From the NCBI GenBank assembly GCA_032718475.1, contig JAUCBJ010006890.1:1-36241 (forward strand): DNA of 36,241 nucleotides, read 5' to 3'. The stretch's first letter is position 1. Every line of letters starts with the position of its first letter. Positions 9,534-36,241 of this stretch are shown here, one piece after another. The DNA comes from Nemertoderma westbladi (lineage: Eukaryota; Animalia; Xenacoelomorpha). A program made the translations under genes and the position numbers. The notes beneath the pieces were generated by a model. It saw nothing but the letters and a program-made list of their open reading frames with translations, did not search any database and was not told the DNA's origin.

Positions 9534-10551
9534 TTAATAATGGGAGGAATAATCACTATCCGAATCGTGGTTGGCAGAGTTAACAAACAGAGTTTTAGGC
9601 TCGATTGAATTGATTGGTTGAAATCCGTCGGAGTCAGATAATCCGTCTACCGGGGGTGTTTCGTTGCTGGAAGGGCTACTGAAGGTGCTGCTGAGATTCC
9701 TACGGCTGGATGGGGGGGAGGAGGGGGACGGGAAGAGACGGGGGTTGGGTTGGGGAATCCGAGCGGAGGAGACGGGGAAGGGGGTGGAAGAGGAGGGGAA
9801 CGGGGTCGGAAGCCAGTCCTCGCCGTCGCTGAACATCGCGGGGTCGGGTATCCTCGGAGAGCCGAGGAAAACCTCGTCGACTTCGGATACACTCGATTCG
9901 TTAACAACCATATCGGGGGCGGTGGACGTTATCTGGCGGCATTGAGCCGCGGAATTACGTCGAGGGATAAACCGTTTCCACGGGAGAATAAATAGGAAGT
10001 AGAGAAAGGAAAGAACAGCGAGGAAATATGTGGATAGTTTAGTAGTCGTGGAGACTAAGAGTAGTTTGAGTTTCCGCTTGCGAGCGGCCCAGACGAGTCG
10101 AGGAGCAGCTAGGAGTTGTCGGACGGTTGGACGAGTTGAGGGATTCGGATCCATCATCGATTGGATGAGTTCCCCGAGGGTGGGATCGCCGATGGATTGG
10201 AGTAACTCGACGGGTAGCGGGGCGCGACGCAGTCGGTGCCAGGTGGGCCCTCCCGAGGGGGGGTCCAGGTCGGTTGCCAGCTCCAACAGCGCGACTCCGA
10301 GGGAGAACACGTCCGCGGGTTTACCGAAGTCGCCCTGCAGGAGTTCCGGCGCGAGGTAGGCGGGGTCGCCCTCCTGCGGGGAACCCGAGCGGCATTGCGT
10401 CGTGTCTACCATGAGGCCGAAGTCGGCGAGTTTCAGTCGGCCGTCGAGACCGACCAGGATGTTGTCCGGTTTGATGTCGAGGTGGACAAGGTCCTGGTCG
10501 TGGAGGTGTCGGAGACCGGTGAGGAGGTCCACCAACCAGTCGATCAGTCGG
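9534..10551 (-). CDS. PKMYT1: Myt1 kinase (membrane-associated Tyr/Thr CDK1-inhibitory kinase), coding exon 2
   Basis: HLDIKPDN, ADFG, QEGDPAYLAPE, ADVFSLG motifs; hydrophobic anchor LSTYFLAVLSFLYFLFILPW; S/P-rich tail. Acceptor ttctcacag ending at 10552 matches the phase-2 donor of exon 1. Confidence 0.9.
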
Positions 10552-10872
10552 CTGTGAGAACGGAAATAACATTGACAAAATAAAATAAGTTACAGTTCCA
10601 TAATGTTATAATACTGTTATATAAAAACAAATGAAAACCGTTGAGGTTGAATACAAAAAAAAAACAGAAACATATCTATGTATGTAGTGTAGTACCGGTA
10701 CCAAGTATAGTACTATTATAGTACCACACGGTAGTAGTCCCAGATCAGTTAATAGTATTACATTTTCTCATTTTTCGGAGTTCTTAAAAATTAAAAAGTT
10801 AGAAGGCAATGAACTACTAAGTATACCACTAACAACAAACTACAGTACTCTAACGTACAATGGCGTATTTAC

Positions 10873-11480
10873 CTTGTGGGTAGATCATGGTGCCTTTCTG
10901 CATATGAAGCCAAACTCTCTGCACACAGTTCTGTCTGTATATACAGCCTCCCTCGCTCTTCCCAAGCTCTGTGGAACGCTAAACAGTTGCCATGACGACC
11001 GAGTAATTCATGACGACGAACCTCCTCCATTCGTCTCCGTCTGTCTGACTCACCCCGGAAACAGTCCTGCGATATTTTAACCGCGTAAAACTCACCATCG
11101 CTTTTACATTTCGCCTTAAAAACCTCCCCAAAACTTCCATTCCCAAGTTTACATTCCACCTCGAATCCTTGATTGAAAAACAATCGTTTATTTTTTTTGT
11201 TGTACAGCGAGGCATCAAGGAAAGATGATATGTTTGAATCGTTTCGGAAGGAAACCGCCTGGGGGCGCTGCTCCGAGAGCAACCGATGAGGGAATATGCG
11301 GCTGACCGGCGGGGCCGATTTGACCGGGGCTCTCGGCAGGGTGGCAGGGCTTCCCACCGTGCAGCGTCGATTCTTTTTGTGTGAGAAATTCCTTTGCGAG
11401 GAATCGAATATCTCCGGAAGGGGACGAGGGGTTAGAGTAATATTCGGTACGCTTTGGGCCCGAGTGTCTCTTACCAACAT
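10873..11480 (-). CDS. PKMYT1: Myt1 kinase, coding exon 1
   Basis: ATG at 11480. PVKSAPPVSRIF and PQAVSFR N-terminal motifs, LGNGSFGEVFK, YAVKIS, AWEERGRLYIQTELC. Donor AG|gtaaat at 10872. The 321-bp intron gives a 541-aa spliced protein. Confidence 0.9.
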
Positions 11481-11678
11481 AGCACCATCAGTCAGTCATT
11501 GCCAAGTGGCATGTCGGCGACGCACTGTCTGACCGTGGTTGCGTTGGCATACCTATCCTACACCGTCAACAAACTTACAGGCTGCAGAGTATTTCTGTAT
11601 TTCTAGGCCTATTCTGCTACTACACTACACTTACACCATCTCCATTAATTTAATAGGCCTACAACAACCATCTGTGGG

Positions 11679-12870: not shown

Positions 12871-14426
12871 TGTCACTAAGTAGCTGTAACTAATACTAAC
12901 TCTATGAATACCGCCCCAGATCATGGTCCCATTGCTGCATTGTCTGGAACACATTAGACAGTTAGATGCCAACACAAAAAACAGTAAGACAACAAATTTA
13001 CAAGGAATAAATTTCTAGAAAAACTAATATACTGTATGAACTTGATTAATACCGTACAGTACTGTCGTAATTGAATAAATATATATACAGTATATACAAA
13101 TTAAATGGTCAAATCAATAATTGAATAACTTCATTTTTATTTTTTATAGGCCTACTTAAATAATATTTACCTCAAATAAAGCTAGGGCTAAACACAAAAT
13201 AATTAGGATGGGGAATCAATATAACACCTCCCCCCTCTCGGAAACTAACGCTACTAACTAAAAGACTAACTGAAACGAACTAAAAGGAATTCATATAAAA
13301 TAAGCTAGAAATTTTAGTCTTGTTTTTAGCGGCGGGTGCCAAATGTTGGTGCCAGCCCCAAATTTTGAAATATTTCAATTTTGTAAATTGATTAATTGAA
13401 GCTGTTTTTTCCGCAATAGAGGTTTTAGGCGTTCTAGTCTCGTTGGAATATATATGAATTGCACTAGGCATATCATCAACGTGGTATTTTTCGGTGCTGT
13501 GTGCAAAATTTGGTGCCAGCAAGAAATTTTGAAAATTTATTCAATAGTTCAATTGATTGTGACAACTCAGTCCTATCTTACATTTTAGAGGTTTAAGGGG
13601 GCTCTGAATTCAATGGAATTAATATTTATCTAACAACTATATATCTCAAACTTGTATTTTTCGGAAGTATGGGGTTTCTTGCGTTATACGGATTTGTGAG
13701 GGTTCTGAATTCAATGGAATATGTAAAAATTGCATATGAATTCTGAAACTTGTATTATTCGGCGGTGGGTGAAAATTTTCAACAACATCGTTTATTGTTT
13801 TGGTTAGAAATTGCCGCCGCTGTAACCTGCTCTTTTCCTTCAATTGGAATGGAAGGTAACAACATCGTTTATTGATTCCCACCTTCCCATCTTTCTTCAT
13901 CGTCTGGGTATAAACTCCGCTGTATCAGCGTGGCAATCAGGGCACTATGGGGCATGTTAAAGTGTTTCGCCATATTCGCAGTACAGCACTGTACAGGAGG
14001 TACTGTACCTCTTCCTGCCTTCCTTTTAGCGTAACAAACAAACAATAAATATTTTAAATGTAACATACTAATAAGTACAATATCATTATTTAATAATATT
14101 AATTATAATTAATATAAATAACTTTAACTATTAATATTGATAATTATTAACAAGAAAGATTACTAAAATATTGCAGCAAAGGCAGAAAGGCTGTATTGTT
14201 TGTAATAAATGATTAATGTTTCAACACCAACTAAATCTGCGAAGGTTGTTTACATCTGAAACTATCCATCTTTGCTGGGGCAATCACACAACTTTCATAC
14301 CCGCCATCCTTCATCCTACTGTATATCGCATTTTTAACATGCCTTTGCTGCATTGGCTGCATACCGGTATGCCTGATGGCCTACTGCTATGTCATATGAT
14401 GATACTGATACGTAACATGGCAACCT

Positions 14427-15362
14427 TAGAACATGCTGCTTCTAGTGTTGGTTTTATTAACTCCAGAAAGACCAAAATTTTGACAGTTAACTTTGAAAGT
14501 CCTCAGCAAGTCTCTGATCGGATGAGCATAAGCTCAAAGGATGGTATGCTTGAGCATGTGGACGACTTCTGTTACCTGGGATCATGGATCCGGAAGTCAG
14601 GTGAGGACCTTCGAATACGTAAGGGAAAGGCATGGGCAGCCTTGAATAGGCTTTCCAGGATTTGGAAGTCACCGAGAATTAATCGGAAACTTAAGGTCCG
14701 ATTATTTAGAGCAGCAGTAGTTCCAGTACTCCTCTACGGGAGTCCATAGCAAGCAAAAAAAGCAAACAGTCGGTCGAAGCCGGAGGCGACCCGAAGGCTC
14801 CTCTTTCGATAGCTGCTACCCGAGGGTAGGGGTGGGCGCTACTCCTATCCCAAGATTTGCTCCCAGTTATTTAACTGGTACTCATTTGGGTGTCCAGCAT
14901 GGACACGGGAGTCCATGCTGGGCTTTAACTGCTGAGGACACCAAATCTCTGGATGGCACATTCACAAGAATGCTACGCCGGGTTCATTGTGTCAAGTACA
15001 ATGCACACATCTCCAACCAGACACTATATAACATTGGAGGTGTCTCATTGGTTCCCCCAAGCTTGACACAAGAACAAAATCGCCTCCGCTTTGCAGGACA
15101 TTGCTTTCGCCGTGAGGACCAGCCAGTGCATAATCTTGTAGTTTGGCAGCCTCATGGAGTGAATAAGCATGGTGGACAGCCCATGACTTTCTTGAGACGC
15201 ATCTTAAAGGACACTGGCCTTGAAGATGCGGATGATCTAGCAAATGTCATGGGTGATAGGGAGTTGTGGCGGTGCAATTTTGTTGACAAGCCGGCACAGC
15301 ATTCTTAAAAATGCAGCTGCAATGCAGCATGCCGATACTAGTAGTAGTAGTACTGTAGTAGT
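14427..15362 (+). mobile_element. 5'-truncated RTE-clade LINE (copy 2), interrupted by a 157-bp insert
   Basis: Aligns to ~1166-1918. (TAG)n tail. 10-bp TSD ATGGCAACCT at 14417-14426 and 15363-15372. Confidence 0.9.
14748..14904 (-). mobile_element. 157-bp SINE-like retroposed insert within the RTE copy
   Basis: Absent from copy 1. 12-bp TSD ACGGGAGTCCAT at 14736-14747 and 14905-14916. The minus-strand 3' end is a simple-repeat tail (tttgctttttttgcttgct). SINE identity is inferred. Confidence 0.7.
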
Positions 15363-17529: not shown

Positions 17530-19085
17530 GGGACGAGTTCCATGGTGAATTATTATCAGCTTTTGACCGTTTTGTACCTAAGTTTACACCTACAGTAGTA
17601 GAAACCCCCGCAGGCACCCTCTGCACATCCGAAGACTGTTAGCTAGAAAGCGGCGCCTCTGGAGGAAAAGAACTTCAACTCCAAATGGCACCTCGATCTA
17701 TCGCGAACATAGTCAACGTTGTTCAGCAGCTATGCGGGAATTTTCTTGTAAACAGGAAGTTAATGTGCTAAATTGTGGTGACAGAAATGCATTTTATAAA
17801 TATGTTAATAAGAGAAAACAGGGTTATAGTTCAGTATCGCCCCTTCTAAAGTCAGATGGTACCACTGCTCTATCAGATTCTGATAAGGCCGAATGCCTCA
17901 GTGAACAATACTCCTCGGTTGGTGTTGATGATAACAAGTCATGCCCCACTGTAAACGCAATTACTGACTCTGTTTTCTCAGAAATTAATTTCTCTCCAAG
18001 TAAGGTGTGTAAAGCCCTAAGTAAACTGCCAGCTAAATATAGTCACTGCCCTGATGGCATCCCTGCGGCAATTCTTAAACAACTGAGATGTGAAATAGCA
18101 TATCCACTAAGTTATCTTTTCCAAGTTTCACTAGATACTGGAGAAGTACCAGATATTTGGAAATGTGCGGATATAATTCCGAGTTTTAAAAAAGGTAAAC
18201 GCAATATAGCTGGAAATTATCGCCCTATTTCACTGACCTCAGCAGTTTGCCGTTTATTTGAACGCATTTTGGTGCTAGAAATGGTTGATTATCTTTTACA
18301 GAATAACCTTTTATCTGCTCAACAATTTGGATTTTTACGTAACCGTAGTACGATTTTGCAGTTAATTGATTGTACTTTTCATTGGTCAAATAATTTAAAT
18401 AACCAGCAATTTACTGATATTGTATATATAGACTATGCTAAGGCATTTGATTCTGTCGTCACTACCAAATTATTAGAAAAAATGAAATCGTTTGGTATTT
18501 CTGGTAAAGTGCTTAGCTGGTTTAAATGCTTTTTAACCGGTCGTATCCAAAGGGTCAAGGTTCGTAATAGTTACTCATCCTACCGGAGAGTTATATCAGG
18601 GGTACCACAGGGGTCCTGTAGTGGGCCGCTGCTATTTCTTATGTTTGTCAATGATATGCCAGGTATATTTACAGAGGAGACCAGTGCTAGACTGTTCGCT
18701 GATGACACAAAATTATTTGCATCATTTGGTTATAGTGACGATCGTAACTTATTACAATCGAACCTGGATACATTTTCGAACTGGTCAAATATCTGGCAAC
18801 TTAACGTTGCAGGTGACAAATGCAAGGTGCTTACTTTAGGTAACTGTAATTGTGGTGCTAACTATAATATAAACATGAAGGTGTTAGAAAATGTTCTATC
18901 CTATCGTGATCTAGGTGTTGAAGTAGATACGAAACTTTATTTTAAGGACCACATAGATAATATAGTAGCCAAATGCTATAAAACAATTAATTTAATATTT
19001 AGATGCTTTGTTACCAATGATATCAGTGCTCTTCTATTTGCCTACAAAGTTTATGCTAGACCACTCGTAGAGTATGCATGGCTAC
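17530..19085 (+). mobile_element. CR1/L2-group LINE ORF2 fragment (reverse transcriptase), truncated at both ends
   Basis: ORF 17732-19099: PDGIPA, NYRPISLTS, QFGF, YIDYAKAFDSV, SGVPQGS, FADDTKL, RDLGV, YKVYARPLVEYA. Similarity breaks off at ~19080. Confidence 0.88.
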
Positions 19086-19118
19086 CCCATAAACTATAGT
19101 AACTGTATGAGATGGCAG

Positions 19119-20037: not shown

Positions 20038-20095
20038 ATGATCATGACTGAATCAGTAACAGTGAAACTCGGAGGAGGTGATGCTAATGATAGCG
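20038..20095 (+). CDS. hnRNP D/AB/squid-like RNA-binding protein, putative coding exon 1 (MIMTESVTVKLGGGDANDS)
   Basis: ATGs at 20038 and 20044. Consensus donor G|gtgagt at 20096 (phase 1) matches the acceptor at 20536. Confidence 0.6.
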
Positions 20096-20535
20096 GTGAG
20101 TCTGGAGTTGGCGAGGTCTGTTATGTTGCCGTCTTCCGTCTTGTTGTTGTTGTTAGCGCCTGCTGAATTACTGTACCGTACATTGGTACATTGTGATTTT
20201 TAGTAAAAATACAGGTACTGGGTTGGGTACCTCGTCAGCTAGTGATTATTTCAGTATTCAGGTATTTGTCAGTATTCCTATTCACTATTCGCTACGGTAC
20301 CAGGCTGCCGGCTGGCCGGCGTACTGGACTACCTGTACTGCTACTGCATACTGCACTACTACAGCTCACCACGTTACTCACGTATTGCCGTAACACAATA
20401 ACGGTACTAAGTAGGCCTACTGTACTTACTGCGGTACGGTAGGCCTACCGCGTGCGCGTACTTACCGGTCAGCCGGTATATACAGATATGGGATATAGCC
20501 TATAATTCTATAATTTATTACTATTCTACTATTAG

Positions 20536-20765
20536 CGCCGCAGTGGAGTGGTTCCCGTAGCAACGCAGAGAACCCCAACTCGGATGTGGAGCATAGGAAA
20601 CTGTTTGTAGGGGCGTTGTCATGGGAGACGTCGGAGGAATCATTCCAGAAATACTTCGAACAATTCGGGCCGATCGAATCGTCCAAAGTAAAGTGCGACT
20701 TCCGAACGGGACGGGCGAGAGGGTACGGCTTCGTTGTGTTCCAGAATCCGGAGTCGATTAAAAAG
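20536..20765 (+). CDS. hnRNP D/AB/squid-like, exon 2 (RRM1)
   Basis: RNP2 KLFVGALSWET and RNP1 RGYGFVVF. Donor AAG|gtaggc, phase 0. Confidence 0.9.
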
Positions 20766-21159
20766 GTAGGCCTAAGTTAGTGGGTCACTATGATACGCAC
20801 GCAGAGTTACTACGACACACACTGTCAGACTGTACCACTGAGTTACTAGGACGCCTTAGTTACTATAACAGTATAAGGTATATACTGAGTTAGTATAATA
20901 CGAGTTGATGGCGTAAAATCAACTCAAACACCACTATGCATAGAGTGGAGAGCAGGAGATATAAGCAAATAGTTCAATAGATTGATGTAAAACATTAAGG
21001 GAAAGTAGCAGGTGGCAGTGGCGTTGTTTTCTAACCAAAGCAATAAACTAAACTTTATTTTACTTGCGGTCAATTATTTACACCCTTGTATGGTACGCAC
21101 TGAGACTGAGTTAATACGATACAATAGTTAGTAAACAGCCCGCCCCATTCCCGGTACAG

Positions 21160-21336
21160 GTGGTTGCCAAGTCAACGCATAGTCTGGATGGAAAACGGAT
21201 AGACCCCCGCCCTTCGGACCCCAGCATGGCTAACAAACACCCCCCTGACGGACGGATTCGGAAACTATTCGTTGGCGGAATATCCCCGGAAGAAAGCGAA
21301 CAGGAGGTCCGGGATTACTTCGGAAAGTTCGGAACG
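21160..21336 (+). CDS. hnRNP D/AB/squid-like, exon 3 (end of RRM1, start of RRM2)
   Basis: HSLDGKRIDP and KLFVGGISPE. Acceptor tacag|, donor ACG|gtaagc, phase 0/0. Confidence 0.9.
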
Positions 21337-21484: not shown

Positions 21485-21625
21485 ATTTCTGAGTTTAATT
21501 GGCCCAAGTTAGTGCGGGATGATCGGACAGAAATTAATCGGCGTTATCTATTTGTTATATTTCAAGACCCTGATCCAGTTGAGGAGATAGCCCGAACTCA
21601 ATTCCATTACATAGGCAACAGTAAG
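21485..21625 (+). CDS. hnRNP D/AB/squid-like, exon 4 (RRM2: ISEFNWPK..RRYLFVIFQDPDPVEEIARTQFHYIGNSK)
   Basis: Not in the ORF track; translated by hand. Acceptor ttttag|, donor AAG|gtgggt, 141 nt, phase 0/0. FHYIGNSK|VEVKIA parallels hnRNP D YHNVGLSK|CEIKVA. Confidence 0.88.
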
Positions 21626-23915
21626 GTGGGTGCAAACTGAGTTCCGTTACATAGGCAACAGTAAGGTGGGTGCAAACTGAGTTCCGTTACATAGGCAATA
21701 GTAAGGTGGGTGCAAACTGAGTTCCATTACATAGGCAACAGTAAGGTGGGTGCAAACTGAGTTCCGTTACATAGGCAACAGTAAGGTGGGTGCAAACTGA
21801 GTTCCATTACATAGGCAATAGTAAGGTGGGTGCAAACTGAGTTCCGTTACATAGGCAACAGTAAGGTGGGTGCAAACTGAGTTCCGTTACATAGGCAACA
21901 GTAAGGTGGGTGCAAACTGAGTTCCGTTACATAGGCAACAGTAATGTGGGTGCAAACTGAGTTCCATTACATAGGCAACAGTAAGGTGGGTGCAAACTGA
22001 GTTCCGTTACATAGGCAACGGTAAGGTGGGTGCAAACTGAGTTCCGTTACATAGGCAACAGTAAGGTGGGTGCAAACTGAGTTCCATTACATAGGCAATA
22101 GTAAGGTGGGTGCAAACTGAGTTCCATTACATAGGCAACAGTAAGGTGGGTGCAAACTGAGTTCCATTACATAGGCAACAGTAAGGTGGGTGCAAACTGA
22201 GTTCCATTACATAGGCAACAGTAAGGTGGGTGCAAACTGAGTTCCATTACATAGGCAACAGTAAGGTGGGTGCAAACTGAGTTCCATTACATAGGCAATA
22301 GTAAGGTGGGTGCAAACTGAGTTCCATTACATAAGCAACAATAAGGTGGGTGCAAATGCAAACTGAGTTCCGTTAGGCAACAGTAAGGTGGGTGCAAACT
22401 GAGTTCCGTTAGGCAACAGTAAGGTGGGTGCAAACTGAGTTCCATTACATAGGCAACAGTAAGGTGGGTGCAAACTGAGTTCCGTTACATAGGCAACGGT
22501 AAGGTGGGTGCAAACTGAGTTCCGTTACATAGGCAACAGTAAGGTGGGTGCAAACTGAGTTCCATTACATAGGCAATAGTAAGGTGGGTGCAAACTGAGT
22601 TCCATTACATAGGCAACAGTAAGGTGGGTGCAAACTGAGTTCCATTACATAGGCAACAGTAAGGTGGGTGCAAACTGAGTTCCATTACATAGGCAACAGT
22701 AAGGTGGGTGCAAACTGAGTTCCATTACATAGGCAATAGTAAGGTGGGTGCAAACTGAGTTCCATTACATAAGCAACAGTAAGGTGGGTGCAAATGCAAA
22801 CTGAGTTCCGTTAGGCAACAGTAAGGTGGGTGCAAACTGAGTTCCGTTAGGCAACAGTAAGGTGGGTGCAAACTGAGTTCCGTTAGGCAACAGTAAGGTG
22901 GGTGCAAACTGAGTTCCGTTAGGCAACAGTAAGGTGGGTGCAAACTAAGTTCCATTACATAGGCAACAGTAAGGTGGGTGCAAACTGAGTTCCATTACAT
23001 AGGCAACAGTAAGGTGGGTGCAAACTGAGTTCCGTTAGGCAACAGTAAGGTGGGTGCAAACTGAGTTCCGTTAGGCAACAGTAAGGTGGGTGCAAACTGA
23101 GTTCCATTACATAGGCAACAGTAAGGTGGGTGCAAACTGAGTTCCATTACATAGGCAACAGTAAGGTGGGTGCAAACTGAGTTCCATTACATAGGCAATA
23201 GTAAGGTGGGTGCAAACTGAGTTCCATTACATAAGCAACAGTAAGGTGGGTGCAAATGCAAACTGAGTTCCGTTAGGCAACAGTAAGGTGGGTGCAAACT
23301 GAGTTCCGTTAGGCAACAGTAAGGTGGGTGCAAACTGAGTTCCGTTAGGCAACAGTAAGGTGGGTGCAAACTGAGTTCCGTTAGGCAACAGTAAGGTGGG
23401 TGCAAACTAAGTTCCATTACATAGGCAACAGTAAGGTGGGTGCAAACTGAGTTCCATTACATAGGCAACAGTAAGGTGGGTGCAAACTGAGTTCCGTTAG
23501 GCAACAGTAAGGTGGGTGCAAACTGAGTTCCGTTAGGCAACAGTAAGGTGGGTGCAAACTGAGTTCCATTACATAGGCAACAGTAAGGTGGGTGCAAACT
23601 GAGTTCCATTACATAGGCAACAGTAAGGTGGGTGCAAACTGAGTTCCGTTAGGCAACAGTAAGGTGGGTGCAAACTGAGTTCCATTACATAGGCAACAGT
23701 AAGGTGGGTGCAAACTGAGTTCCATTACATAGGCAACAGTAAGGTGGGTGCAAACTGAGTTCCGTTAGGCAACAGTAAGGTGGGTGCAAACTGAGTTCCA
23801 TTACATAGGCAACAGTAAGGTGGGTGCAAACTGAGTTCCGTTAGGCAACAGTAAGGTAGGTGCAGACTGAGTTCCGTTAGGCAACAGTAAGGTAGGTGCA
23901 GACTGAGTTCCGTTA
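21595..23915. repeat. 40-bp (with 36- and 45-bp variants) satellite derived from the exon4/intron4 junction, roughly 60 copies
   Basis: Unit aactgagttcc(a/g)ttacataggcaacagtaaggtgggtgca; the first unit overlaps the last 31 nt of exon 4. Confidence 0.95.
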
Positions 23916-24583
23916 TGTGTCATTTAAACTTTTTCTGAGGTCTTAAAAATCGACTGCAGTTTTCCAGACTACCTCTAAGTGTAAAGTGATCAAGGGACAT
24001 CTGCTTAGATGTTGCTTATATTTCTTTCGGGTTGACACTTACATAATTTTATGTCACGTGCTGCGCGAAGGACCCACTTCAGGCATAATATGGTTAAGGT
24101 TAAGTTACAACAAATTATAGATATTGATACCAGCGCAAGCAACCCTCAACGCGTAGCCTTTTAGCTGCAAGTTGGCTCCAAAATTACAGACAAATAGACA
24201 ATGGGTGAACAACAAACAACCCCTGGTAGCCAATGAGAGAACCTGGAACTTTCGGGTATTTTTAGTAATTACAGGTAGGTAGGTTAATGTCATTTAGTAG
24301 TATTATATTATAATTGGACCAAAATGGGATGGTGTGAGTCACGTCAGTGTGTATGTAGACGTGTGTATCCTAATTATAAGTATATCAATGTGAATCCAAT
24401 AATATTGATCACTGATCACTGGGGTCAACTCCTCGCAGTCTATTATTATTAATTAATTGTGAACAAGACGAGTGAACAAGACATGTCTGGCTGGGGGGGG
24501 GGGGGGGGGGGCAGTGAAACGTGTGTGGGGGGGCAGTGCCTCCAAAGCCCCCCCCCCCCCCCCCCCGCACGATACGGGCCTGA

Positions 24584-24651
24584 AGGCAACTGTAAGGTGG
24601 TGGTTGCAAACTGAGTTCCATTACATAGGCAACAGTAAGGTGGGTGCAAAC
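24584..24651. repeat. Detached ~1.7 units of the splice-junction satellite
   Basis: aggcaactgtaaggtgg..aactgagttccattacataggcaacagtaaggtgggtgcaaac, then unique sequence. Confidence 0.9.
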
Positions 24652-25098: not shown

Positions 25099-26550
25099 GG
25101 CCCATTCTCACCAAAATTGGCCAAACGGTTGTCCGATGACACAACTTCTGTTTATGGCGGTTCTAGAAAGTGGTTGTTCCAGTAAACCAACCTACCGTTA
25201 GAAAGCTGGATAAATGGAGATTCGTTTTCAGCAGTATTTGTATTAATGTATACATACACTGTAGTTGGTGTCGTACAGCTGCGTTTAACATCGTGTCCGA
25301 CACTTTTCTGATTTTTATGTCCTACCCTGTACAGATTATTTACAGACAATAATCAATCACTGTGTCCGGCCTTGTAGCTGTAATGGTGTCCGCCACTGGT
25401 AATGTATGGCTCTGGGGGCTCTGGGATCACGTTCACTATGTAATACAAGCTTGCCAGCGAGGCTGGCAATATGGACGGATCCATTGCTATCAATATTATT
25501 GTTGTAATAAATTACGCGCCTATATGCAGGGAAGCCTAATAACGCAAAACGAAACATTGAGCAAAGTACCGTCTGTACAATACAATTATTATTTTTTTGT
25601 TTGTTGTAATGAATTAAGCGCATACTGTAAGCAGGACAGCCTAATAAGTAATATCGAATGAGAACCCAATAGTTGTCAATATGGACGTGGAGCAGACAAC
25701 TCTCTCAATTACACTGCTACAGTACTTACATGTACCTCCACACTGAAGCTCCAATAGGATGTAGTCTAGGCAACGATATTCTGGGATTAACTAATCCAAT
25801 TTTCTGGGATTGGCTATAGCCTTTATGATAATAGTATAATTAGTATAATATTGTAGGGCCTATGTTAAAAAAACACTGTTTGTTAGAAATGTATCTTCTC
25901 CTACAATTCTAAACGGAATAAAGCGAAATTTTGCATAAAGCATGTCCAATAGATGCTAACAGAATTTTGATTGAGTGAATTCTACGATTATGATCGGTCA
26001 TTCTAGAATTAATTTCACTGTTACTAGGCAACCAACAGGTCCCTCGCAACCAAAACCTTTCATACACAACTAGGTCCGATAATGAACCTATCATCAAAAT
26101 TTTATCCAATTCCATCAACATTAAGTGCAAGAAGTTGTGTGTACAAACAAACAAACAAACAAACACGCGTGAGAAATAAGGACATCCACTTCTTGGATCC
26201 GTCCAATATGTTTAATATAATAAATGTATATCTTTCGCTATTCAAATTATACTAATAGGCGTGGATTATTATACATTTGCCTAGAAATGTACGCATTACA
26301 AGCCGGACAAATCATTTCATGGCGCGGACACAATGATCTATTTACCTAGAAATGTTATGCATTACTGGCCGGACAAATCATTACAGGGAAGGACTCGTTT
26401 TAAATGCAAAATCAATTTTTTCAACGCCGCAAAAGTGTTTGTCCATGTCCATGGTCCCTGTGAAATTCCTGACATCAAGAGAGTTCAAAAAATATATGGG
26501 TTTTTGGAAAAATGAACATCCGTTTTGGCCAATTTTGGTGAGAATGGGCC
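25099..26550. mobile_element. Non-autonomous TIR element (1452 bp) with 4-bp TAAT TSD; superfamily uncertain
   Basis: TIR ggcccattctcaccaaaattggccaaa / tttggccaattttggtgagaatgggcc. TAAT at 25095-25098 and 26551-26554. No transposase ORF. Confidence 0.8.
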
Positions 26551-28352
26551 TAATACATAGATCTTCTTATAAAATATTATATATTATTCATTTATCCTTT
26601 ATTTATGTCGTTGCAGTTAATCCACACCGTTGATTACATTTCATCATCAATTGGCTATGTAGGCCTAGGGTTTATATAAAATACATAATAATTCATACAA
26701 TGTTATTCCATAAATAGTTTTATAATATATAGTTATACCATAATTAGTATTTCTCGTTATTTCGCCCTGATCTGTTACTATAGCTATCGGTGTTTATTAT
26801 AAAGTACTACCGGTACTGTAATCTTCGTTATCTTCGTGTTGTCTTCCTGTCTGTAAAACAGTTTGTATTGGCGGATCTTTGTTCTCTATTTGCCAGATCT
26901 CCTAGGAAACGTCTAGTAACATTGGAGGGCGGTCAGCTCAGTCTTACCCTTTGCTAGTATTGGCTGAATCTTTATCGTCTCCCAGGTGATGCCACGTGGT
27001 CATCCATCAGGTATGACAGGTATTCTTTGAATGTCTCTTCCGGTAACGGTCGGTCTACCTGTCGGTCGTTTTGTTGGATTCGTCAACTGTCGGTTATTTT
27101 GTCGGTCTTCTAGTATGCACGCCTCCTTTTCCTATTTTATAATATTGTTTAATTTTGTTTTTTCTTGATATGATTAGTAAATGCCGTAAAGAGGTTTGTA
27201 TTAATTAACATTGATTTCACTTGGAATTCGGGTTATTTTGCACAGAAACAAAATTACTAAAGAGTCTATAACAATATTCTTGAACATTTTATTTTTATAT
27301 TATATGCAATTATATTGTATGATATTGCTTTTAAATGTTTTTATAGTTTTATGTAATAAAAGCCTTGTGTAAAAAGCACAATTAATGAATATAAATACGC
27401 AATGTTTCCACAAATGAGAAAACTATATATTTTCATCTCTGCAACTCGTTACGTTATGGCACTAACTAGGGATGTCCCGGAATCGATATTTTGATTCCGG
27501 CCGGAACCGGAACCGGAATTCAACATGCCGGAATATTCCGGCCGGAATTCCGGCCGGAACCGGAATTTCTATAATTATTGAAATACAATAAATGACCCAT
27601 GAAACTTTATAATTTTTTGTGAAACAGATGAATTTTTTAATTTCTACAGCTTAGTTTGTTAATGAGATGTCTAGAACCTTAGGGGGAATTAATGTGGGTG
27701 GAGTGTAGAATGGCCTGGCCCGTTATGGCCGTTTATGGGGACGGGATGGTACTTCGGCATTATTCAATATCATTTTTTTTCTAATATCAATAACCTTGGC
27801 CAAAAGTTAGGTTTTTAGCATTTAGACTCATATATACCTAAAAACCTACGTTTAACAAAAACTTATGGTTTCGCGTCATTAGGTCCTTTGGTGCAATATT
27901 CTGGTGTCTTTAAGGGAAAGGAGCATGTTACAGAGACATGTTATTCGAACCAAAACAATAAACGAGGCCACTAGTACATGTTACAGTTTAATTGTTGCTG
28001 GGAATAAATAGATTTATGGTAAGAAATGGATTTGCTGTAAATAGAAACAAAACTACTATATTATGCAGCACCTACGACGCAGAACTGAACTAACGACCAC
28101 TCGCAGGACCTGTACGTATTGTAATAACGTTTTATATTTATATTAGTTTTAGGTTAAAGTAGTAATAATTGTAATTATGTTAATCGTTAATCGAGTTTCA
28201 TTGCTAACTTTACAATGTTAGCAATTTATTTAGCCTCCTGTAATTATAATATTATTTAATAATTAATTCAATGTCAAATAATGTAAAATCAATCTAAAAA
28301 ACGCCATTTTATAAGCAAATTGTAATAATTAAATTGGAAAAACCACCCGCTA

Positions 28353-28699
28353 AGGCCCGTGCTCCACTGGTAAGTCTTATGTAGTCTTAGTCAGAATTAA
28401 TTATGGAAAACATTGGTTTCAATGGGAGCATCTCCTCTGGTAAATCGTAAGTTACGCCTATGAGTCGCAAGTGATTATATCCCATGTTCCATCTTTTGAC
28501 ATATGAATCATGTGTTATATCCGTCAAGATGCCTGTGATTGGTTACTTTGCGTATAAATATGCAGTAAATGTGAGACGAATCTTATATTTTCTATCAAAT
28601 GACTTATGACTTGTGTTACCTATGGAGCAAGGAGGCATTCATTTTGAGATTCTGACTAAGACAAAATCTGAAAACGACTTACCAGTGGAGCACGGGCCT
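28353..28699. mobile_element. 347-bp MITE with 3-bp TSD (PIF/Harbinger-like) nested in the hAT element
   Basis: Perfect 24-bp TIR aggcccgtgctccactggtaagtc / gacttaccagtggagcacgggcct. CTA on both flanks. Confidence 0.8.
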
Positions 28700-28955
28700 C
28701 TAATGATGCATTTCATAAAATATCTTCAGAACGACAAAGGGTTTAATTAGTTAATGTAAATTACGATGGTTATTGTGAATTGTATATGAATACTACAGTA
28801 GGTGGTGTAACATATGGTGGGACCACTTTAGTTTGATTACCAGGTGAATTTTTTTTGGAAATGTGTTACATATACCCATCAAGACTGCATTCACTTTAAT
28901 AAACAGGGTGGCTGAGAATTTTACCTCGTTAGATAGGTTAGTTAGGTTCCACCTT

Positions 28956-29100
28956 GGTGTATACGTATATAGTGGTTGCATTGATTTCCAATCTATCTGG
29001 GGGTCGTGGGTACGATCCCTGCATGTGGGCCAAGACAGTTTTCGATTCGGCACGAATGGTTTAAAGGGGCTAACCAGGGGGCATCTATGCCTTTCATCCT
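28956..29100 (+). mobile_element. Possible degenerate tRNA-derived SINE
   Basis: A-box-like tagtggtt, anticodon-arm-like gatttccaatc, B-box-like gggtacgatccc (29008-29019). No full cloverleaf. Confidence 0.35.
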
Positions 29101-29552
29101 TAAATGTTAGCCCTAACGGTCGACGAAAACTTTATTTCTATACTTGTTTACAAGTGTTGAAAAGTATCTTAAACTAATTGGTAATAATGTTTAAAAAATA
29201 TACAAATGTTAATAATAATTTAACAAACTAATTGCATCAAACTAGATATGAACCTTGCAATTCCGGTAAAATTCCGGCCGGAATTGACCCCATTCCGGCA
29301 ATTCCGGCCGGAACCGGAATCGGGCAAAAACCGCCGGAATTCCGGCCGGAACGGAATTCCGGGACATCCCTAGCACTAACTAACTATTAAAAACTACTTG
29401 AAAAATTGTGTTTTAAACCCACAACACCAATTTACTTTCTATTTTAATTTATATCCGAATATTTTTAACTTTTCATCTTTGCGTGCAGCGGTCAATAAAT
29501 TGAGCGGATAAATGTAAAATAACCTTAATTCCATGTGGGGGCACCTCGGACA

Positions 29553-32292
29553 ACCCGGACCACCATGGGTTCGGTACAGCACCGGTTGGTACGATCGGAC
29601 AACCATGGGTTCGGACCAGCGCCGGTTGGTACGATCGGACCAGCACCGGTTGGTACGATCGGACCAGCACCGGTTGGTACGATCGGACAACCATGGGTTC
29701 GGACCAGCGCCGGTTGGTACGATCGGACCAGCACCGGTTGGTACGATCGGACCAGCACCGGTTGGTACGATCGGACCAGCACCGGTTGGTTCCATCGGAA
29801 CAGCACCGGTTGGTACGATCGGACCAGCACCGGTTGGTACGATCGGACCAGCACCGGTTGGTTCCATCGGAACAGCACCGGTTGGTACGATCGGACCAGC
29901 ACCGGTTGGTACGATCGGACCAGCACCGGTTGGTACGATCGGACCAGCACCGGTTGGTTCCATCGGAACAGCACCGGTTGGTACGATCGGACCAGCACCG
30001 GTTGGTACGATCGGGCCACCTCGGACAACCATGGGTTCGGAACAGCGCCGGTTGGTACGATCGGACCAGCAGCGGTTGGTACGATCGGACCAGCACCGGT
30101 TGGTTCCATCGGAACAGCACCGGTTGGTACGATCGGACCAGCACCGGTTGGTACGATCGGACCAGCACCGGTTGGTTCGATCGAGCCAGCACCGGTTGGT
30201 ACGATCGGACCAGCACCGGTTGGTACGATCGAGCCAGCACCGGTTGGTACGATCGGACCAGCACCGGTTGGTGCGATCGGTGGTGCGATCGGACCAGCAC
30301 CGGTTGGTGCGATCGGACCAGCACCGGTTGGTGCGATCGGACCAGCACCGGTTGGTACGATCGGACCAGCACCGGTTGGTACGATCGGACCAGCACCGGT
30401 TGGTACGATCGGACCAGCACCGGTTGGTACGATCGGACCAGCACCGGTTGGTACGATCGGAACAGCACCGGTTGGTACGATCGGACCAGCACCGGTTGTT
30501 ACGATCGGACCAGCACCGGTTGGTTCGATCGGAACAGCACCGGTTGGTACGATCGGACCAGCACCGGTTGGTTCGATCGGAACAGCACCGGTTGGTACGA
30601 TCGGACCAGCAACGGTTGTTACGATCGGACCAGCACCGGTTGGTTCGATCGGAACAGCACCGGTTGGTACGATCGGACCAGCACCGGTTGGTACGATCGA
30701 GCCAGCACCGGTTGGTGCGATCGAACCAGCACCGGTTGGTGCGATCGGACCAGCACCGGTTGGTTCCATCGGAACAGCACCGGTTGGTACGATCGGACCA
30801 GCACCGGTTGGTACGATCGGACCAGCACCGGTTGGTACGATCGGACCAGCTCCGGTTGGTACGATCGGACCAGCACCGGTTGGTTCGATCGGACCAGCAC
30901 CGGTTGGTACGATCGGACCAGCACCGGTTGGTACGATTGAGCCAGCACCGGTTGGTGCGATCGGACCAGCACCGGTTGGTACGATCGAGCCAGCACCGGT
31001 TGGTGCGATCGGACCAGCACCGGTTGGTACGATCGAGCCAGCACCGGTTGGTTCGATCGGAACAGCACCGGTTGGTACGATCGGACCAGCACCGGTTGGT
31101 ACGATCGGACCAGCACCGGTTGTTACGATCGGACCAGCTCCGGTTGGTTCGATCGGAACAGCACCGGTTGGTACGATCGGACCAGAACCGGTTGGTACGA
31201 TCGGACCAGCACCGGTTGGTACGATCGGACCAACACCGGTTGGTGCGATCGGACCAGCACCGGTTGGTACGATCGAGCCAGCACCGGTTGGTGCGATCGG
31301 ACCAGCAACGGTTGGTACGATCGGACCAGCACCGGTTGGTACGATCGGACCAGCACCGGTTGGTACGATCGGACCAGCACCGGTTGGTTCGATCGAAACA
31401 GCGCCGGTTGGTACGATCGGACCAGCGCCGGTTGGTACGATCGAGTCAGCACCGGTTGGTACGATCGGACCAGCACCGGTTGGTTCGATCGGACCAGCAC
31501 CGGTTGGTGCGATCGGACCAGCACCGGTTGGTGCGATCGGACCAGCAACGGTTGGTACGATCGGACCAGCACCGGTTGGTGCGATCGGACCAGCACCGGT
31601 TGGTACGATCGAGTCAGCACCGGTTGGTGCGATCGGACAAGCACCGGTTGGTTCGATCGGACCAGCACCGGTTGGTACGATCGAGCCAGCACCGGTTGGT
31701 ACGATCGGACCAGCACCGGTTGATTCGATCGGACCAGCACCGGTTGGTGCGATCGGACCAGCACCGGTTGGTGCGATCGGACCAGCAACGGTTGGTACGA
31801 TCGAGCCAGCACCGGTTGGTGCGATCGGACCAGCACCGGTTGGTACGATCGAGCCAGCACCGGTTGGTGCGATCGGACCAGCACCGGTTGGTTCGATCGG
31901 ACCAGCACCGGTTGGTACGATCGAGCCAGCACCGGTTGGTGCGATCGGACCAGCACCGGTTGGTTCGATCGGACCAGCACCGGTTGGTACGATCGAGCCA
32001 GCACCGGTTGGTACGATCGGACCAGCACCGGTTGGTTCGATCGGACCAGCACCGGTTGGTGCGATCGGACCAGCACCGGTTGGTACGATCGGACCAGCAG
32101 CACCGGTTGGTTCGATCGGACCAGCACCGGTTGGTGCGATCGGACCAGCACCGGTTGGTACGATCGGACCAGCACCGGTTGGTACGATCGGACCAGCACC
32201 GGTTGGTGCGATCGGACCAGCACCGGTTGGTGCGATCGGACCAGCACCGGTTGGTACGATCGGACCAGCACCAGTTGGTACGATCGGACCAC
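29553..32292. repeat. 24-bp GC-rich satellite (gatcggaccagcaccggttggtac), ~110 copies, ending ~40 bp upstream of the exon 5 acceptor
   Basis: Directly visible tandem array; the unit contains ACCGGT, CGATCG and GTAC palindromes. Confidence 0.95.
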
Positions 32293-32333: not shown

Positions 32334-32469
32334 GTTGAAGTTAAGATAGCCGAGCCTAGGGAACCCAAGCACTACTCGCAGGATGCAGAGGACCGCCCCC
32401 CAGCGGGCGCTGGGGCAGCACCCCCCTGGGGGGGTTGGCAGCAGCCCCAACAGCAATGGGGTGCCGCAG
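32334..32469 (+). CDS. hnRNP D/AB/squid-like, exon 5 (VEVKIAEPREPKHYSQ..PPWGGWQQPQQQWGAA)
   Basis: Strong acceptor tatttttgtttcag|. Completes RRM2 beta4. Donor CAG|gttagc, phase 1. Confidence 0.88.
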
Positions 32470-32818: not shown

Positions 32819-33127
32819 GTTGGAACGCTGCCGCTCCTGGGGCCCAATGGGACCCGGCACAGGCCCAGGCCTACCAACAACAACAGCAGCAGTGGGGCGA
32901 ATACTGGGCCCAGTGGCACCAATGGAACCAACAGCAACAGGCATGGGCCGCCAGTCAAGGCCAACAAACTGCTGTCCCATCGGTTGCCCAGCAACCCTGG
33001 ACTGGAGACTCGACCAGCTACCCCGCCTATCAACAGCCGACCAGTGACCCTGCCGCCACACAGCCGCAGTACGGCAGTCAGCCACCCGGCTATGGCTACA
33101 CCCAGCCCCCACCACAGTCGGCACAGG
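32819..33127 (+). CDS. hnRNP D/AB/squid-like, exon 6 (Q/W/P/A-rich low-complexity domain); gene continues downstream
   Basis: Acceptor tatttag|, phase 1, reading GWNAAAPGAQWDPAQAQAYQQQQQQWGEYWAQWHQWNQQQQAW..QYGSQPPGYGYTQPPPQSAQ. Consensus donor G|gtaagt at 33128; no stop. Confidence 0.82.
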
Positions 33128-33621: not shown

Positions 33622-34941
33622 TTAAATATAATCACTTGTGTCGAGACACGAGTTTAATGTTTGTTCTGTTCCCAAGATGAAGTATCTTTGATTGTCTTCT
33701 AGCGTTCTAATAAGATCTACGCAGTCATTTTCCACCGATGTGTAAAAGCACTTCAACCAGGAAGAATACACGTCCGTACTAAGACTCCAACCCTGCTCCC
33801 CAGACAGTGCTGCTAGACCCTCGTAACGTGGTGTGGTAAACATTCTTCCTATCATGTCGAACAAACCCAAGGGATATTTTATATAGGAACCGTTAAATAT
33901 AGTAGGGATGTCAGTGCAGGTGAGGTGAGTGGCCTCCTTAATGGTGATAACGTTGCTGCTTAGCGACGCAGACCCACTGTGATCCAAAATCTTCAATTTC
34001 TTTTCGAATGTCGGAAGCCTCTCGAAGTTGCTTCTATAATGGCATTTCTCATAGTTAAGGAACATTAGCGGCTTCTCGCAGAGTTTGGACAACATTCCGG
34101 CTTCTTCATGTATCGGGAATAGCCAAGCGTCGAAACAGAAAGCGGATGAGAAACATTCGTATGTCTGCAAAGCCTTCACAACCGTGGCTCCACCGAACGA
34201 GTGCCCACATAGACTAACTCCATTACCGAAGTCCAACCTATTCCGCCATTCATCCATCACGAATTCTCGCTTATCATCGAAAGGTCGAGATATTTCGTTT
34301 AGTCGAGGCCCGGAATTCAGATTCATCAAAAGATCGACGGCACTTTTACACTCGCGACTGCGTATGCAGACTTGGGAGTTTAATACCGAGTAATTCCCCA
34401 TTTCGAATCGCGTTGGTTCACACCACTTCAACTCACCGTTAGCGTCCAGTTGTCTAGCAATGCACGCCGTGCCGTCCCCGTGCTCTATCGCGGCCACCAC
34501 GTACCCTTTGGAAGCCATTTCGGAGCAAAGTAGTGAGTAAGCTGTCCTACAGCCGCCAGTACCATGAGAAAATATAATAATGGAGAACTTCGATGGTTTG
34601 TTAATGTCGGAAATCGATGCGTTTTGAATAATCGGACATAAAGGATTGCAGGCCATCCAAGCGCCGAGTCTTCCCATCCATTGTGGGCAATCCATGCCGG
34701 ATCTTTTGTTTACGTACGCTGTTGCGTATTCCGGTTCAGGCACCCAGGTGGGCCAGCGATCCATCTGCGACATCAGATACGTTTCCTTATCTTCAATTGA
34801 GTCGTGGAAACGATGCGGATAATATAGTCGAAAGAAAATGTGTTTGTCCGCGAGATCGACACAGCCCACAGAGTAATGGCCCGATGATACAGGGAGGTAG
34901 ACACGGCCTCGGATTGTAGAGACTTTTCGTGAAGGGACCAT
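33622..34941 (-). CDS. Platelet-activating factor acetylhydrolase family lipase (PLA2G7/PAFAH2-like), intronless, 439 aa from first ATG
   Basis: GHYSVGCVD, FRLYYP, IIFSHGTGGCRTAYS, EMASKGYVVAAIEHGDGTA, nucleophile elbow GHSFGGAT, FDAWLFP, and candidate catalytic His in ATHLTCTD. First ATG at 34941. Confidence 0.9.
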   Translation of the reverse strand: MVPSRKVSTIRGRVYLPVSSGHYSVGCVDLADKHIFFRLYYPHRFHDSIEDKETYLMSQMDRWPTWVPEPEYATAYVNKRSGMDCPQWMGRLGAWMACNPLCPIIQNASISDINKPSKFSIIIFSHGTGGCRTAYSLLCSEMASKGYVVAAIEHGDGTACIARQLDANGELKWCEPTRFEMGNYSVLNSQVCIRSRECKSAVDLLMNLNSGPRLNEISRPFDDKREFVMDEWRNRLDFGNGVSLCGHSFGGATVVKALQTYECFSSAFCFDAWLFPIHEEAGMLSKLCEKPLMFLNYEKCHYRSNFERLPTFEKKLKILDHSGSASLSSNVITIKEATHLTCTDIPTIFNGSYIKYPLGLFDMIGRMFTTPRYEGLAALSGEQGWSLSTDVYSSWLKCFYTSVENDCVDLIRTLEDNQRYFILGTEQTLNSCLDTSDYI

Positions 34942-36241
34942 GTTTGAAACTGGCTTAATCAAGTTAGTGCTTGACAATAATTGTCCAAAGGTTCAACTTA
35001 TTTAAGCAAAACTTCAGTTGCTAAAACGCTACATAATATTACGCCAAGTGTTTATATAAAAATGAAAATGTAGTTAGAAATCAATATTGGCTTATTAGTA
35101 TCTTATTTAATAAATATTATTAATAAATAAAGTTTCCAGTTAACAAATAACACTGTATTATTCTTTTTTTGTATCTAACTGTACACTGTACAGTACAGTT
35201 AAGTACCTCAAACCATCATCCATATTTTCAAACTAACTATAATAATAATTACAATTTGTATATAATATTTATTTTTTTTTTTTATTTGTTTAAAATTCCG
35301 TCTTATCTTAATGATCCAATGTTCTCTATCGGTGTACATTGAACGGCATTGTTCAGTAGGCCCTACCTTTTATATCTCTATAAAATCTGAGTGCCAAGTA
35401 GTTAGAGAGTTCCAGACCGCGCTTACTTAGGATATGTCAGACATGCCAAATAATACTCTTGACGGGCTATTGATATGGATGGATCCCCAATGCCAGGACT
35501 CTGTCAAGGTAACAGACAGGGTTGGGAGATTATATGGATAGGCCTTATCAATTAATTATAATAGTTTTTATTTTGATAGCAGTCGGAATGAACTAACGAT
35601 GTAGTTACAAAAATAACTTGATGAATAATAATGATTCACATGATTTATTTTATCTTTAAATTGTTACTTTTTCGCTCGAATATACCCCAAATTCATGAGA
35701 AAAAGGATACTTTATTCCCTAGGGAAAAAACTAGAGACGGGCCTAGCGGCCCGTGAAGCTAGTCGTAGGAGACAGTACGAGTCAAGTAAAAGCTTTTTGT
35801 TCTGTCTGATAATAAATTAGTGTGAGGGTAGACCCGGTGGTGTACAACAAATTTACTAGACAACTTCAAACTATACTTATTATGTTGTAATCATCTAATG
35901 AATTATAAAAGCTGTTGTGATTATAGAAGATAAAGAGCAGTTAGCGAAATGATTATTTTGTTCTATCGGAGATAATAATAATAACAGCAGTTGTCATGAA
36001 TTCAATACAATCGCGCACAAGAAGTGATAAGACAAATTCGGTCTTATTTTTGTAATAAATAACAAGTTGAGATGTTTCAATGTAAACCGCGATTAACAAT
36101 TTACACGGTTAAATGTAAACCACGATATTAATTAAATACAACAATTATATTTTTATATAGATTTTTATATTTCAAACTATAACGTTAGCCTTATGGAGAA
36201 TCATTATTAGGCTGAGTAAACATTCAGCCTTATAAGCATAC

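What the first reader, a model, noticed from the sequence alone, without database searches (positions are those of the whole stretch)
21595..23915. A 5' splice site amplified into a satellite: roughly 60 donor copies behind exon 4 of an hnRNP gene
Seen: the 40-bp unit is the last 31 nt of exon 4 plus the first 9 nt of intron 4, so nearly every unit has the same AAG|GTGGGT donor and exonic context as the real one. The last two units read AAG|GTAGGT, and each unit also has an internal CA|GTAAGG. Reading past the first donor gives VGAN-stop (TGA at 21638-21640), so use of any downstream copy truncates RRM2 upstream of an exon junction. Most units also contain UAGG in the pre-mRNA. Established: RNA-binding-protein genes often autoregulate through splicing coupled to NMD, and hnRNP A/B-type RRMs bind UAG-containing motifs. 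Inference: the array could act as a copy-number-tunable U1 decoy or poison-donor switch, or it shows that the spliceosome can pick the first of many identical donors.
Basis: partly seen in the sequence, partly recalled or inferred. Interest (0 to 1): 0.85.

Follow-up and report, generated by a model that had tools for sequence, protein, structure and literature searches.

The report
Splice-donor minisatellite in an hnRNP intron
The end of one exon of an animal RNA-binding-protein gene, with its splice signal, is copied about 60 times into the next intron, but the spliced RNA assemblies seen use the first signal, so this is likely a tolerated example of a repeat type known from human and lancelet genes and likely not a control switch.

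Summary
The array is real. It has 59 units of 36-42 nt at 21595-23915, then a 668-nt insertion and 1.6 more units: 60 donor copies in all. Short-read 31-mer depth in DNA run X3 gives 21/26/39 copies where the assembly has 23/28/42, so the length is not inflated. The host is a two-RRM hnRNP D/DL/AB-like gene. The copies are not exact: 0 of 59 downstream donors carry the native 31-nt exon end, though 56 of 59 share the 9-nt donor. Two runs that behave as RNA, from two studies, each give a spliced contig from exon 4 to exon 5 through the first donor. Contigs drop rare forms, so decayed downstream-donor RNA is not excluded, and one run holds unexplained array sequence. The anatomy matches the human F7 intron-7 VNTR and amphioxus 'mirage' repeats. 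The F7 work already tested how the first of identical donors wins. The scan noted the same kind of array before, in many unrelated genes of this genome and in other genomes (unchecked notes). That argues against an hnRNP-specific switch. Verdict: new member of a known kind.

The parts
20044..20095 (+). Coding exon 1 (ATG to GCG|GTGAGT, phase 1)
   Evidence: X5 loose ends at 20095 and 20535 give the exon 1-exon 2 join
20536..20765 (+). Exon 2, most of RRM1
   Evidence: Pfam RRM_1 E 7.6e-16; X5 joint skipping 394 nt, GT..AG
21160..21336 (+). Exon 3, end of RRM1, linker, start of RRM2
   Evidence: best solved-structure hit hnRNP D-like 7zir, E 3.3e-13; X5 joints
21485..21625 (+). Exon 4 (141 nt), RRM2 core; ends at the authentic donor AAG|GTGGGT
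   Evidence: best hits hnRNP D0 and D-like, E 3e-4 to 5e-4; X4 and X5 contigs leave here into exon 5
21595..23915 (+). Junction-spanning minisatellite: 59 units of 36/40/42 nt, first unit spans the exon 4-intron 4 border; 58 downstream donor copies
   Evidence: X3 depth
21638..21640 (+). TGA reached on read-through of the first donor (VGAN-stop)
23829..23900 (+). Two terminal 36-nt units with AAG|GTAGGT (7 of 9 consensus matches against 6 of 9 for the authentic donor)
23916..24583 (.). 668-nt insertion that interrupts a unit; nature inferred (mobile-element-like), not tested
   Evidence: borders printed
24584..24651 (+). Trailing 1.6 units with a degenerate donor (24596) and the 60th donor (24639), followed by the unique, presumably original, intron sequence
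   Evidence: X3 contig joins a unit to the letters from 24652
29611..32291 (.). Second, unrelated 24-nt satellite at the 3' end of the same intron; not junction-derived; ends 43 nt before the acceptor
   Evidence: longest exact match of one sampled unit to the gene's exon regions is 8 nt
32334..32469 (+). Exon 5, end of RRM2 and start of the low-complexity tail
   Evidence: loose-end letters of X4 and X5 are the start of this exon; frame open
32819..33127 (+). Predicted exon 6, Gln/Gly/Trp/Pro/Tyr-rich tail; the gene's 3' end was not traced

Best explanation
A 40-nt stretch spanning the exon 4-intron 4 border of an hnRNP D/AB-like gene stands in about 60 tandem copies; it likely arose by one short duplication, likely grew by ordinary minisatellite turnover, and is likely tolerated because splicing uses the first donor, as the two spliced RNA assemblies show. 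Shown: the array, its copy number, its nested larger duplications, the interrupting insertion, and first-donor use in both spliced contigs. Inferred: (1) the seed duplication used the 3-nt AAC shared by exon and intron; (2) slippage or unequal exchange expanded it; (3) only the first copy keeps the frame, and it is chosen because exon 4 lies between a short and a long intron, where the donor nearest the upstream acceptor is favoured (141-nt exon; each later donor adds 36-42 nt); (4) any leak to later donors gives a stop at 21638 and would be removed as waste, with no regulatory role.
For: Unit structure and polarity: 36-nt units only from unit 20 on; exact 576-nt internal duplication at lag 462. 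Border units escape homogenisation: the first unit differs from the unit consensus at 2 positions and is the only unit of its kind, and the last two carry a private change, as described for mirage clusters (PMC3087553 passages). AAC is shared at both breakpoints. Changes in the units look unconstrained: 9 distinct substitutions, one 4-nt deletion, one 6-nt insertion. Spliced contigs of X5 (depth 2300.8, study P3) and X4 (depth 15.8, study P1) run with 0 other letters through exon 4 and leave at 21627 into exon 5, 2 of 2 RNA-behaving runs. The DNA runs X1, X2, X3 show no such joint, so it is not a retrocopy. Intron sizes 148 and 10,708 nt put the exon in the short-long class with upstream-donor preference in human data (PMC9225289 passages). 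F7: only the most upstream of 5-9 identical donors is used (PMC1557585 abstract, Introduction, Discussion). The window has 15 distinct tandem arrays, one at a junction of this gene. Unchecked notes list the same anatomy in lysosomal, dynein, transporter and other genes of this genome.
Against: Only contigs were available, and they drop rare forms; decayed isoforms would be rare in any case. X4 holds array-unit contigs at depth 11-58, roughly 1.4-2.9 per copy against 15.8 for the spliced contig (hand arithmetic; the tool warns that summed depth is a poor measure), so array-containing RNA may be appreciable there. X4's spliced contig stops exactly 30 letters into exon 5, where a join from an internal CA|GT donor would break a 31-mer graph (59 of 61 such sites); a variant at letter 31 or a drop in depth would do the same. 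In human IFI6 and CBS two downstream copies are used (PMC1557585 Introduction). The splicing rules cited are mammalian. One unchecked note reports use of an inner copy in GALNS in this genome.
Confidence: 0.8

Rival explanations
1. The array slows or detains removal of intron 4 (many U1 sites and hnRNP motifs on the nascent RNA), so array-containing precursor builds up and copy number affects output without any use of downstream donors.
For: X4 contains array contigs at depth 11-58 beside a spliced contig at 15.8. Arrays fill 46% of the 10.7-kb intron.
Against: A low general precursor or DNA background is multiplied up to 42-fold in the repeat and would look the same. X4's library type is not on record. 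X5 shows an unbroken spliced contig at depth 2300.8.
Confidence: 0.08
2. Regulated poison-donor switch: the protein binds UAGG in the array and moves splicing to downstream donors, giving stop-containing RNA that is decayed; copy number sets the gain.
For: All downstream donors lie past the stop at 21638. Human hnRNP D and DL autoregulate by splicing coupled to decay (PMC5824352 abstract and section 5). X4's contig end 30 letters into exon 5 fits a join from an internal donor.
Against: Both spliced contigs pass through the first donor unbroken. The stop is a by-product of unit length. Known D/DL control uses a 3'UTR cassette exon, for DL an ultraconserved one, and not a drifting repeat. hnRNP A/B sites favour the upstream donor in mammalian extracts (PMC1326234 passages), which would give positive feedback here. 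The same anatomy is noted in genes with no RNA-binding role (unchecked).
Confidence: 0.07
3. U1 decoy or sponge: the copies titrate U1 snRNP.
For: 60 main and about 60 internal donor-like sites; the RNA is poorly structured (z +2.0 and +1.9 against shuffles), so the sites should be accessible.
Against: U1 snRNP is far more abundant than the nascent copies of one gene (recalled knowledge, no call). The donors match 6 of 9 (main) and 5 of 9 (internal) consensus letters. Notes list arrays of 500-2,100 copies elsewhere in this genome (unchecked), which would dwarf this one.
Confidence: 0.02
4. Assembly artefact, or copy number inflated by the assembler.
For: Tandem arrays are error-prone. X2 gives a lower ratio (19.6 against 25 expected), and an X4 contig shows a unit form absent from the window.
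Against: X3 depth ratios 21.4, 25.6, 38.5 and 21.0 against assembly counts 23, 28, 42 and 23.5; one further, partly laid contig gave 7.4 against 9.5. Single-copy contigs stop at 21631 in 3 of 3 DNA runs; the unit-to-intron junction is seen in X3.
Confidence: 0.02

Closest known systems
Human F7 intron 7 37-bp VNTR, with IFI6/6-16, CBS, LMNB2 and PDGF as cited there (PMC1557585; abstract, Introduction and Discussion read)
   Same: First monomer spans the exon-intron border, the donor is repeated in each unit, and the most upstream donor is the one used.
   Different: 59-60 copies here against 5-9 (F7), 10-15 (LMNB2), 15-20 (CBS), 16-18 (PDGF) and 25 pseudo-sites (6-16). The unit is mostly exonic (31 of 40 nt; F7 has 4 of 37). 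Invertebrate host. In 6-16 and CBS two further donors are used; not seen here at contig level.
Amphioxus 'mirage' minisatellites: Adh3, globins BflGb6/BflGb9, troponin C, PGBD5 (PMC3087553 and PMC3902484; passages read)
   Same: Tandem copies of an exon-intron border inside an intron, normal splicing, concerted evolution with border units left out.
   Different: Mirage globin clusters have 3-6 units of about 150-160 bp; this one has about 60 units of 36-42 nt, nested larger duplications and an interrupting insertion. Length instability is shown in amphioxus and only hinted at here.
hnRNP D / DL autoregulation by splicing-coupled decay (PMC5824352; abstract and section 5 read)
   Same: The host protein's exons 3 and 4 are closest to hnRNP D/DL among solved structures; alternative use would give decay-type RNA.
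   Different: D/DL use a 3'UTR cassette exon (ultraconserved in DL) shown to respond to UPF1 knockdown. Here there is a drifting repeat in a coding-region intron, no cassette exon, and no unproductive isoform observed.

Membership tests
Junction-spanning minisatellite (F7-type / 'mirage') | Head-to-tail tandem units of minisatellite size | tested here: met
   59 units of 36-42 nt
Junction-spanning minisatellite (F7-type / 'mirage') | First unit spans a real exon-intron border and the splice signal is repeated | tested here: met
   Donor at 21625 shown by X4 and X5 contigs; 56 of 59 downstream donors have the same 9-mer
Junction-spanning minisatellite (F7-type / 'mirage') | Normal mRNA is made from the authentic site | tested here: met
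   2 of 2 RNA-behaving runs, at contig level only; minor forms not visible
Junction-spanning minisatellite (F7-type / 'mirage') | Concerted evolution with border units excluded | tested here: met
   The first unit is unique (2 differences from the unit consensus), the last two carry a private change, and there is a 576-nt exact internal duplication
Junction-spanning minisatellite (F7-type / 'mirage') | Length polymorphism or instability | tested here: inconclusive
   X2 ratio 19.6 against 25 expected; a unit form in X4 is absent from the window; no phased alleles available
Autoregulatory poison element (hnRNP D/DL type) | Alternative cassette exon that makes the decay isoform | tested here: not met
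   The feature is a run of alternative donors in a coding intron, and no cassette exon is part of it; the gene's 3'UTR was not examined
Autoregulatory poison element (hnRNP D/DL type) | Deep sequence conservation | not testable with these tools
   No relative's locus was obtained (no genome held; no close homologue); within the array the units drift freely
Autoregulatory poison element (hnRNP D/DL type) | Unproductive isoform rises when decay is blocked and follows the protein's level | not testable with these tools
   Only untreated contig sets were available
hnRNP D/DL/AB-like protein (host gene) | Two tandem RRMs followed by a low-complexity tail | tested here: met
   Pfam RRM_1 in exon 2 (58.2 bits) and, below the curated cut-off, in exon 3 (18 bits); tail composition
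hnRNP D/DL/AB-like protein (host gene) | Closest to D/DL/AB rather than A1/A2 or Musashi | tested here: inconclusive
   Exons 3 and 4 hit D-like/D0 first; exon 2 ranks A1 first on summed two-domain scores and A/B and D0 first among single-domain hnRNP entries; no tree built
hnRNP D/DL/AB-like protein (host gene) | Binds UAG(G) RNA | not testable with these tools
   RNP1 of RRM2 departs from hnRNP D (alignment); no binding data

The most novel reading that the evidence does not exclude
The array is a copy-number-tunable unproductive-splicing or intron-detention element on an hnRNP gene: a real share of transcripts is held in, or spliced from, the repeat (perhaps at the internal CA|GTAAGG donors) and decayed, under control of the gene's own product. 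That would be a young repeat taking over the job that ultraconserved poison exons do in vertebrates. The array contigs in X4 and its contig end 30 letters into exon 5 are what keep this open.
Probability: 0.1. Interest if true: 0.7.

Novelty: new member of a known kind. Interest (0 to 1): 0.2.

Why it matters
As it stands it is one more, mid-sized, case of a described repeat type. It is a usable natural test of donor choice in an invertebrate: 60 near-identical donors, two stronger ones at the far end, and two marker letters that tell the first copy from the rest in a single read. The larger question is why this genome appears to have so many junction-built arrays (unchecked notes). That needs a genome-wide count, which could not be made here. 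If the novel case held, it would link repeat copy number to the dose of a splicing regulator.

Tried and rejected
No whole genome was held, so no genome-wide count of junction arrays against chance and no search for the unit elsewhere. No RNA holder was listed as such; X4 and X5 are recorded as 'DNA?' and are treated as RNA only because their contigs cover exons and skip introns. X5 has no cover past 21627, X4 no listed contig from native exon 4 into the array and none over intron 3, and X6 laid nothing: holes in contig sets, not used as evidence. The exon-2 homologue search gave 5 distant RRM proteins of 15 candidates, and the neighbouring PAF-acetylhydrolase at best 40% identity; neither placed the organism or gave a related locus. 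Folding gave no structure that would hide the downstream donors (2 stretches of 120 nt). The idea that the 24-nt array is also junction-derived was rejected (8-nt best match), and so was its in-frame ORF with exon 5 as a used exon (all three plus frames of the unit lack stops; spliced contigs go straight from exon 4 to exon 5). Literature searches that added nothing: 0 papers; only the F7 paper; listings only, none opened, no title on junction-built satellites. These searches cover open-licence papers only; the original Adh3 mirage, CBS and 6-16 papers were not seen, and no supplements were read. A protein comparison of two units failed on frame and was not needed.

Full report
Observation. 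Tandem Repeats Finder places an array of period 40 and 59.4 copies at 21595-23915. Splitting it gives 59 units: 41 of 40 nt, 15 of 36 nt, 3 of 42 nt. Six exons (20044-20095, 20536-20765, 21160-21336, 21485-21625, 32334-32469, 32819-33127) form an open frame of 348 codons with GT-AG borders. The array's first unit is the last 31 nt of exon 4 plus 9 nt of the 10,708-nt intron 4. There are 60 main donor copies counting the authentic one: 57 AAG|GTGGGT, 2 AAG|GTAGGT and 1 AAT|GTGGGT. The 60th lies at 24639, after a 668-nt insertion that splits a unit; the unique intron resumes at 24652. Read-through hits TGA at 21638-21640.

Is it real? Three DNA runs (X1, X2, X3; each may be the source of this DNA) have single-copy contigs that stop at 21631, where repeat words begin. 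In X3, single-copy depth is 23.4 and three unit contigs have depth 500, 600 and 900: ratios 21.4, 25.6 and 38.5 against 23, 28 and 42 copies of the same 31-mers in the window. A fourth gives 21.0 against 23.5, and a partly laid fifth 7.4 against 9.5. X2 gives 19.6 against 25. The high depths look rounded and the tool warns against reading summed depth as copy number, so I used single contigs. An X3 contig joins a unit to the unique intron. The array and its rough size are therefore supported by short reads; unit order is not tested.

Host gene. Exon 2 is an RRM (Pfam). Exons 3 and 4 hit hnRNP D-like and D0 first among solved structures. Exon 2 ranks hnRNP A1 first on summed two-domain scores, and A/B and D0 first among single-domain hnRNP entries. 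I call it hnRNP D/DL/AB-like; no tree was built. The organism was not placed.

Which donor is used? X5 (sample S3, study P3) and X4 (S1, P1) are recorded as 'DNA?' but behave as RNA. The X5 contig (1,232 letters, depth 2300.8) joins exons 2, 3 and 4 across GT..AG introns and leaves at 21627 into exon 5, whose first two letters are also GT. The X4 contig (676 letters, depth 15.8) has exon 3 letters before 21484 and leaves at the same place. Both carry the native exon 4 letters. The DNA runs, X2 from the same sample as X4 among them, show no such joints, so this is not a retrocopy. Thus 2 of 2 use the first donor as the main form. Contigs drop rare variants, and decayed RNA would be rare, so minor use of later donors is not excluded.

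Results against the simple reading. X4 also holds array-unit contigs at depth 11-58 (8 of 13 laid records listed). Scaling three bins by X3 gives about 1.4-2.9 per copy, 9-19% of the spliced contig (hand arithmetic, rough). This may be precursor or DNA background multiplied by the repeat, or array-specific RNA. X4's spliced contig also stops exactly 30 letters into exon 5. In a 31-mer graph that is where a second upstream partner not ending in G would cut it: 59 of 61 internal-donor-like sites and the one AAT|GT copy would do so. A retained intron would cut at 28 letters and the commonest main donors at 6-24. But the contig passes the first donor unbroken, which such RNA would have to leave, and a variant at letter 31 or a fall in depth explains it as well. 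Some laid records appear to share words, so graph reasoning is not fully safe. I count this as a weak, unresolved hint.

How it arose (inferred). Exon and original intron share AAC at the two breakpoints, which fits a 40-nt microhomology duplication. Growth looks like minisatellite turnover: 36-nt units appear only from unit 20 on, a 576-nt block is repeated exactly at lag 462, and border units carry private changes. Eleven distinct changes separate the units: 9 substitutions, a 4-nt deletion and a 6-nt insertion. None hits the main GT, against about 0.45 expected, so there is no sign of selection either way. The stop is generic: with native letters the read-through still stops, after 12 codons rather than 4. 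TAGG would be in 12% of 30,203 other 40-nt stretches of the window. The window has 15 distinct tandem arrays; one lies at a junction of this gene, and a second, unrelated one fills the 3' end of the same intron.

Why the first donor wins (established in mammals, inferred here). For F7, with 5-9 identical donors, only the most upstream is used and stronger downstream copies do not compete until they match the consensus fully (PMC1557585: abstract, Introduction, Discussion read). In human data, exons between a short and a long intron prefer the upstream of two equal donors (PMC9225289, passages); exon 4 lies between 148 and 10,708 nt. hnRNP A/B binding sites promote the distal, upstream donor (PMC1326234, passages). 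Human D and DL do autoregulate, but through 3'UTR cassette exons, ultraconserved in DL (PMC5824352, abstract and section 5).

Comparison and novelty. The anatomy is that of the F7, 6-16, CBS, LMNB2 and PDGF arrays (as cited in PMC1557585; originals not seen) and of amphioxus 'mirages' (PMC3087553 and PMC3902484, passages). I reached F7 by my own search; the 'mirage' name came from earlier notes and was then checked in the papers. Those notes, unchecked, list the same kind of array in GALNS, dynein, a nuclear receptor, PRPF8, HBS1L, CstF-77, RBM25, CLUAP1 and others in this genome, several with hundreds to 2,100 copies, and in other genomes, where two notes found no excess over chance. I could not test these because no genome is held. 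If they hold, an hnRNP gene carrying one needs no special explanation.

Verdict. Observation confirmed. Most likely a tolerated junction-spanning minisatellite with first-donor splicing (0.8). New member of a known kind, interest 0.2. A regulatory role for the repeat keeps about 0.1 and would deserve 0.7.

Noticed in passing
window 29611-32291: A second satellite (24-nt unit, about 110 copies) fills the 3' end of the same intron and stops 43 nt before the exon 5 acceptor. One plus-strand frame stays open from 29529 through it into exon 5, but the unit has no stop in any plus frame.
   Followed up: partly
window 21612-21645, run X4: A 51-letter contig at depth 54.9 gives a 36-nt unit form (A where the window's 36-nt units have G) that does not occur in the window; possible second allele. 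A 66-letter contig in X2 and X3 may also be a unit order not in the assembly.
   Followed up: partly
window 20078-20550, run X5: The spliced path is broken into several contigs around the exon 1-exon 2 join (one ends at 20078, the next starts at 20550); possible variant or alternative splice site there.
   Followed up: no
window 33622-34992, minus strand: Intronless PAF-acetylhydrolase ORF (Pfam E 3e-53), 0.5 kb past exon 6, whose donor at 33127 implies a further exon; it may be nested in or overlap the hnRNP gene's 3' end. Best named hit is a copepod protein at 40%, the rest 34% or less.
   Followed up: partly
window 9534-11495, minus strand: Two-exon protein kinase, Myt1/Wee-like by recalled motifs (Pfam Pkinase E 5e-27 for the second exon), head to head with the hnRNP gene across about 8.5 kb of repeats.
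   Followed up: no
window 4382-7549 (-), 717-1989, 14213-15308, 17582-19099 (+): A 1,055-codon ORF between inverted repeats (3383-3502 / 8212-8331 and 1921-2146 / 8513-8738), probably a DNA transposon, and reverse-transcriptase-like fragments, by eye only.
   Followed up: no
window 25099-26550, 27469-29370, 28353-28699: Short inverted-repeat-flanked elements inside intron 4, one nested in another (the middle one read by eye).
   Followed up: no
window 20988-21075: A short piece of intron 2 is a very high-copy genomic repeat (summed depth about 20,000-40,000 in DNA runs).
   Followed up: no
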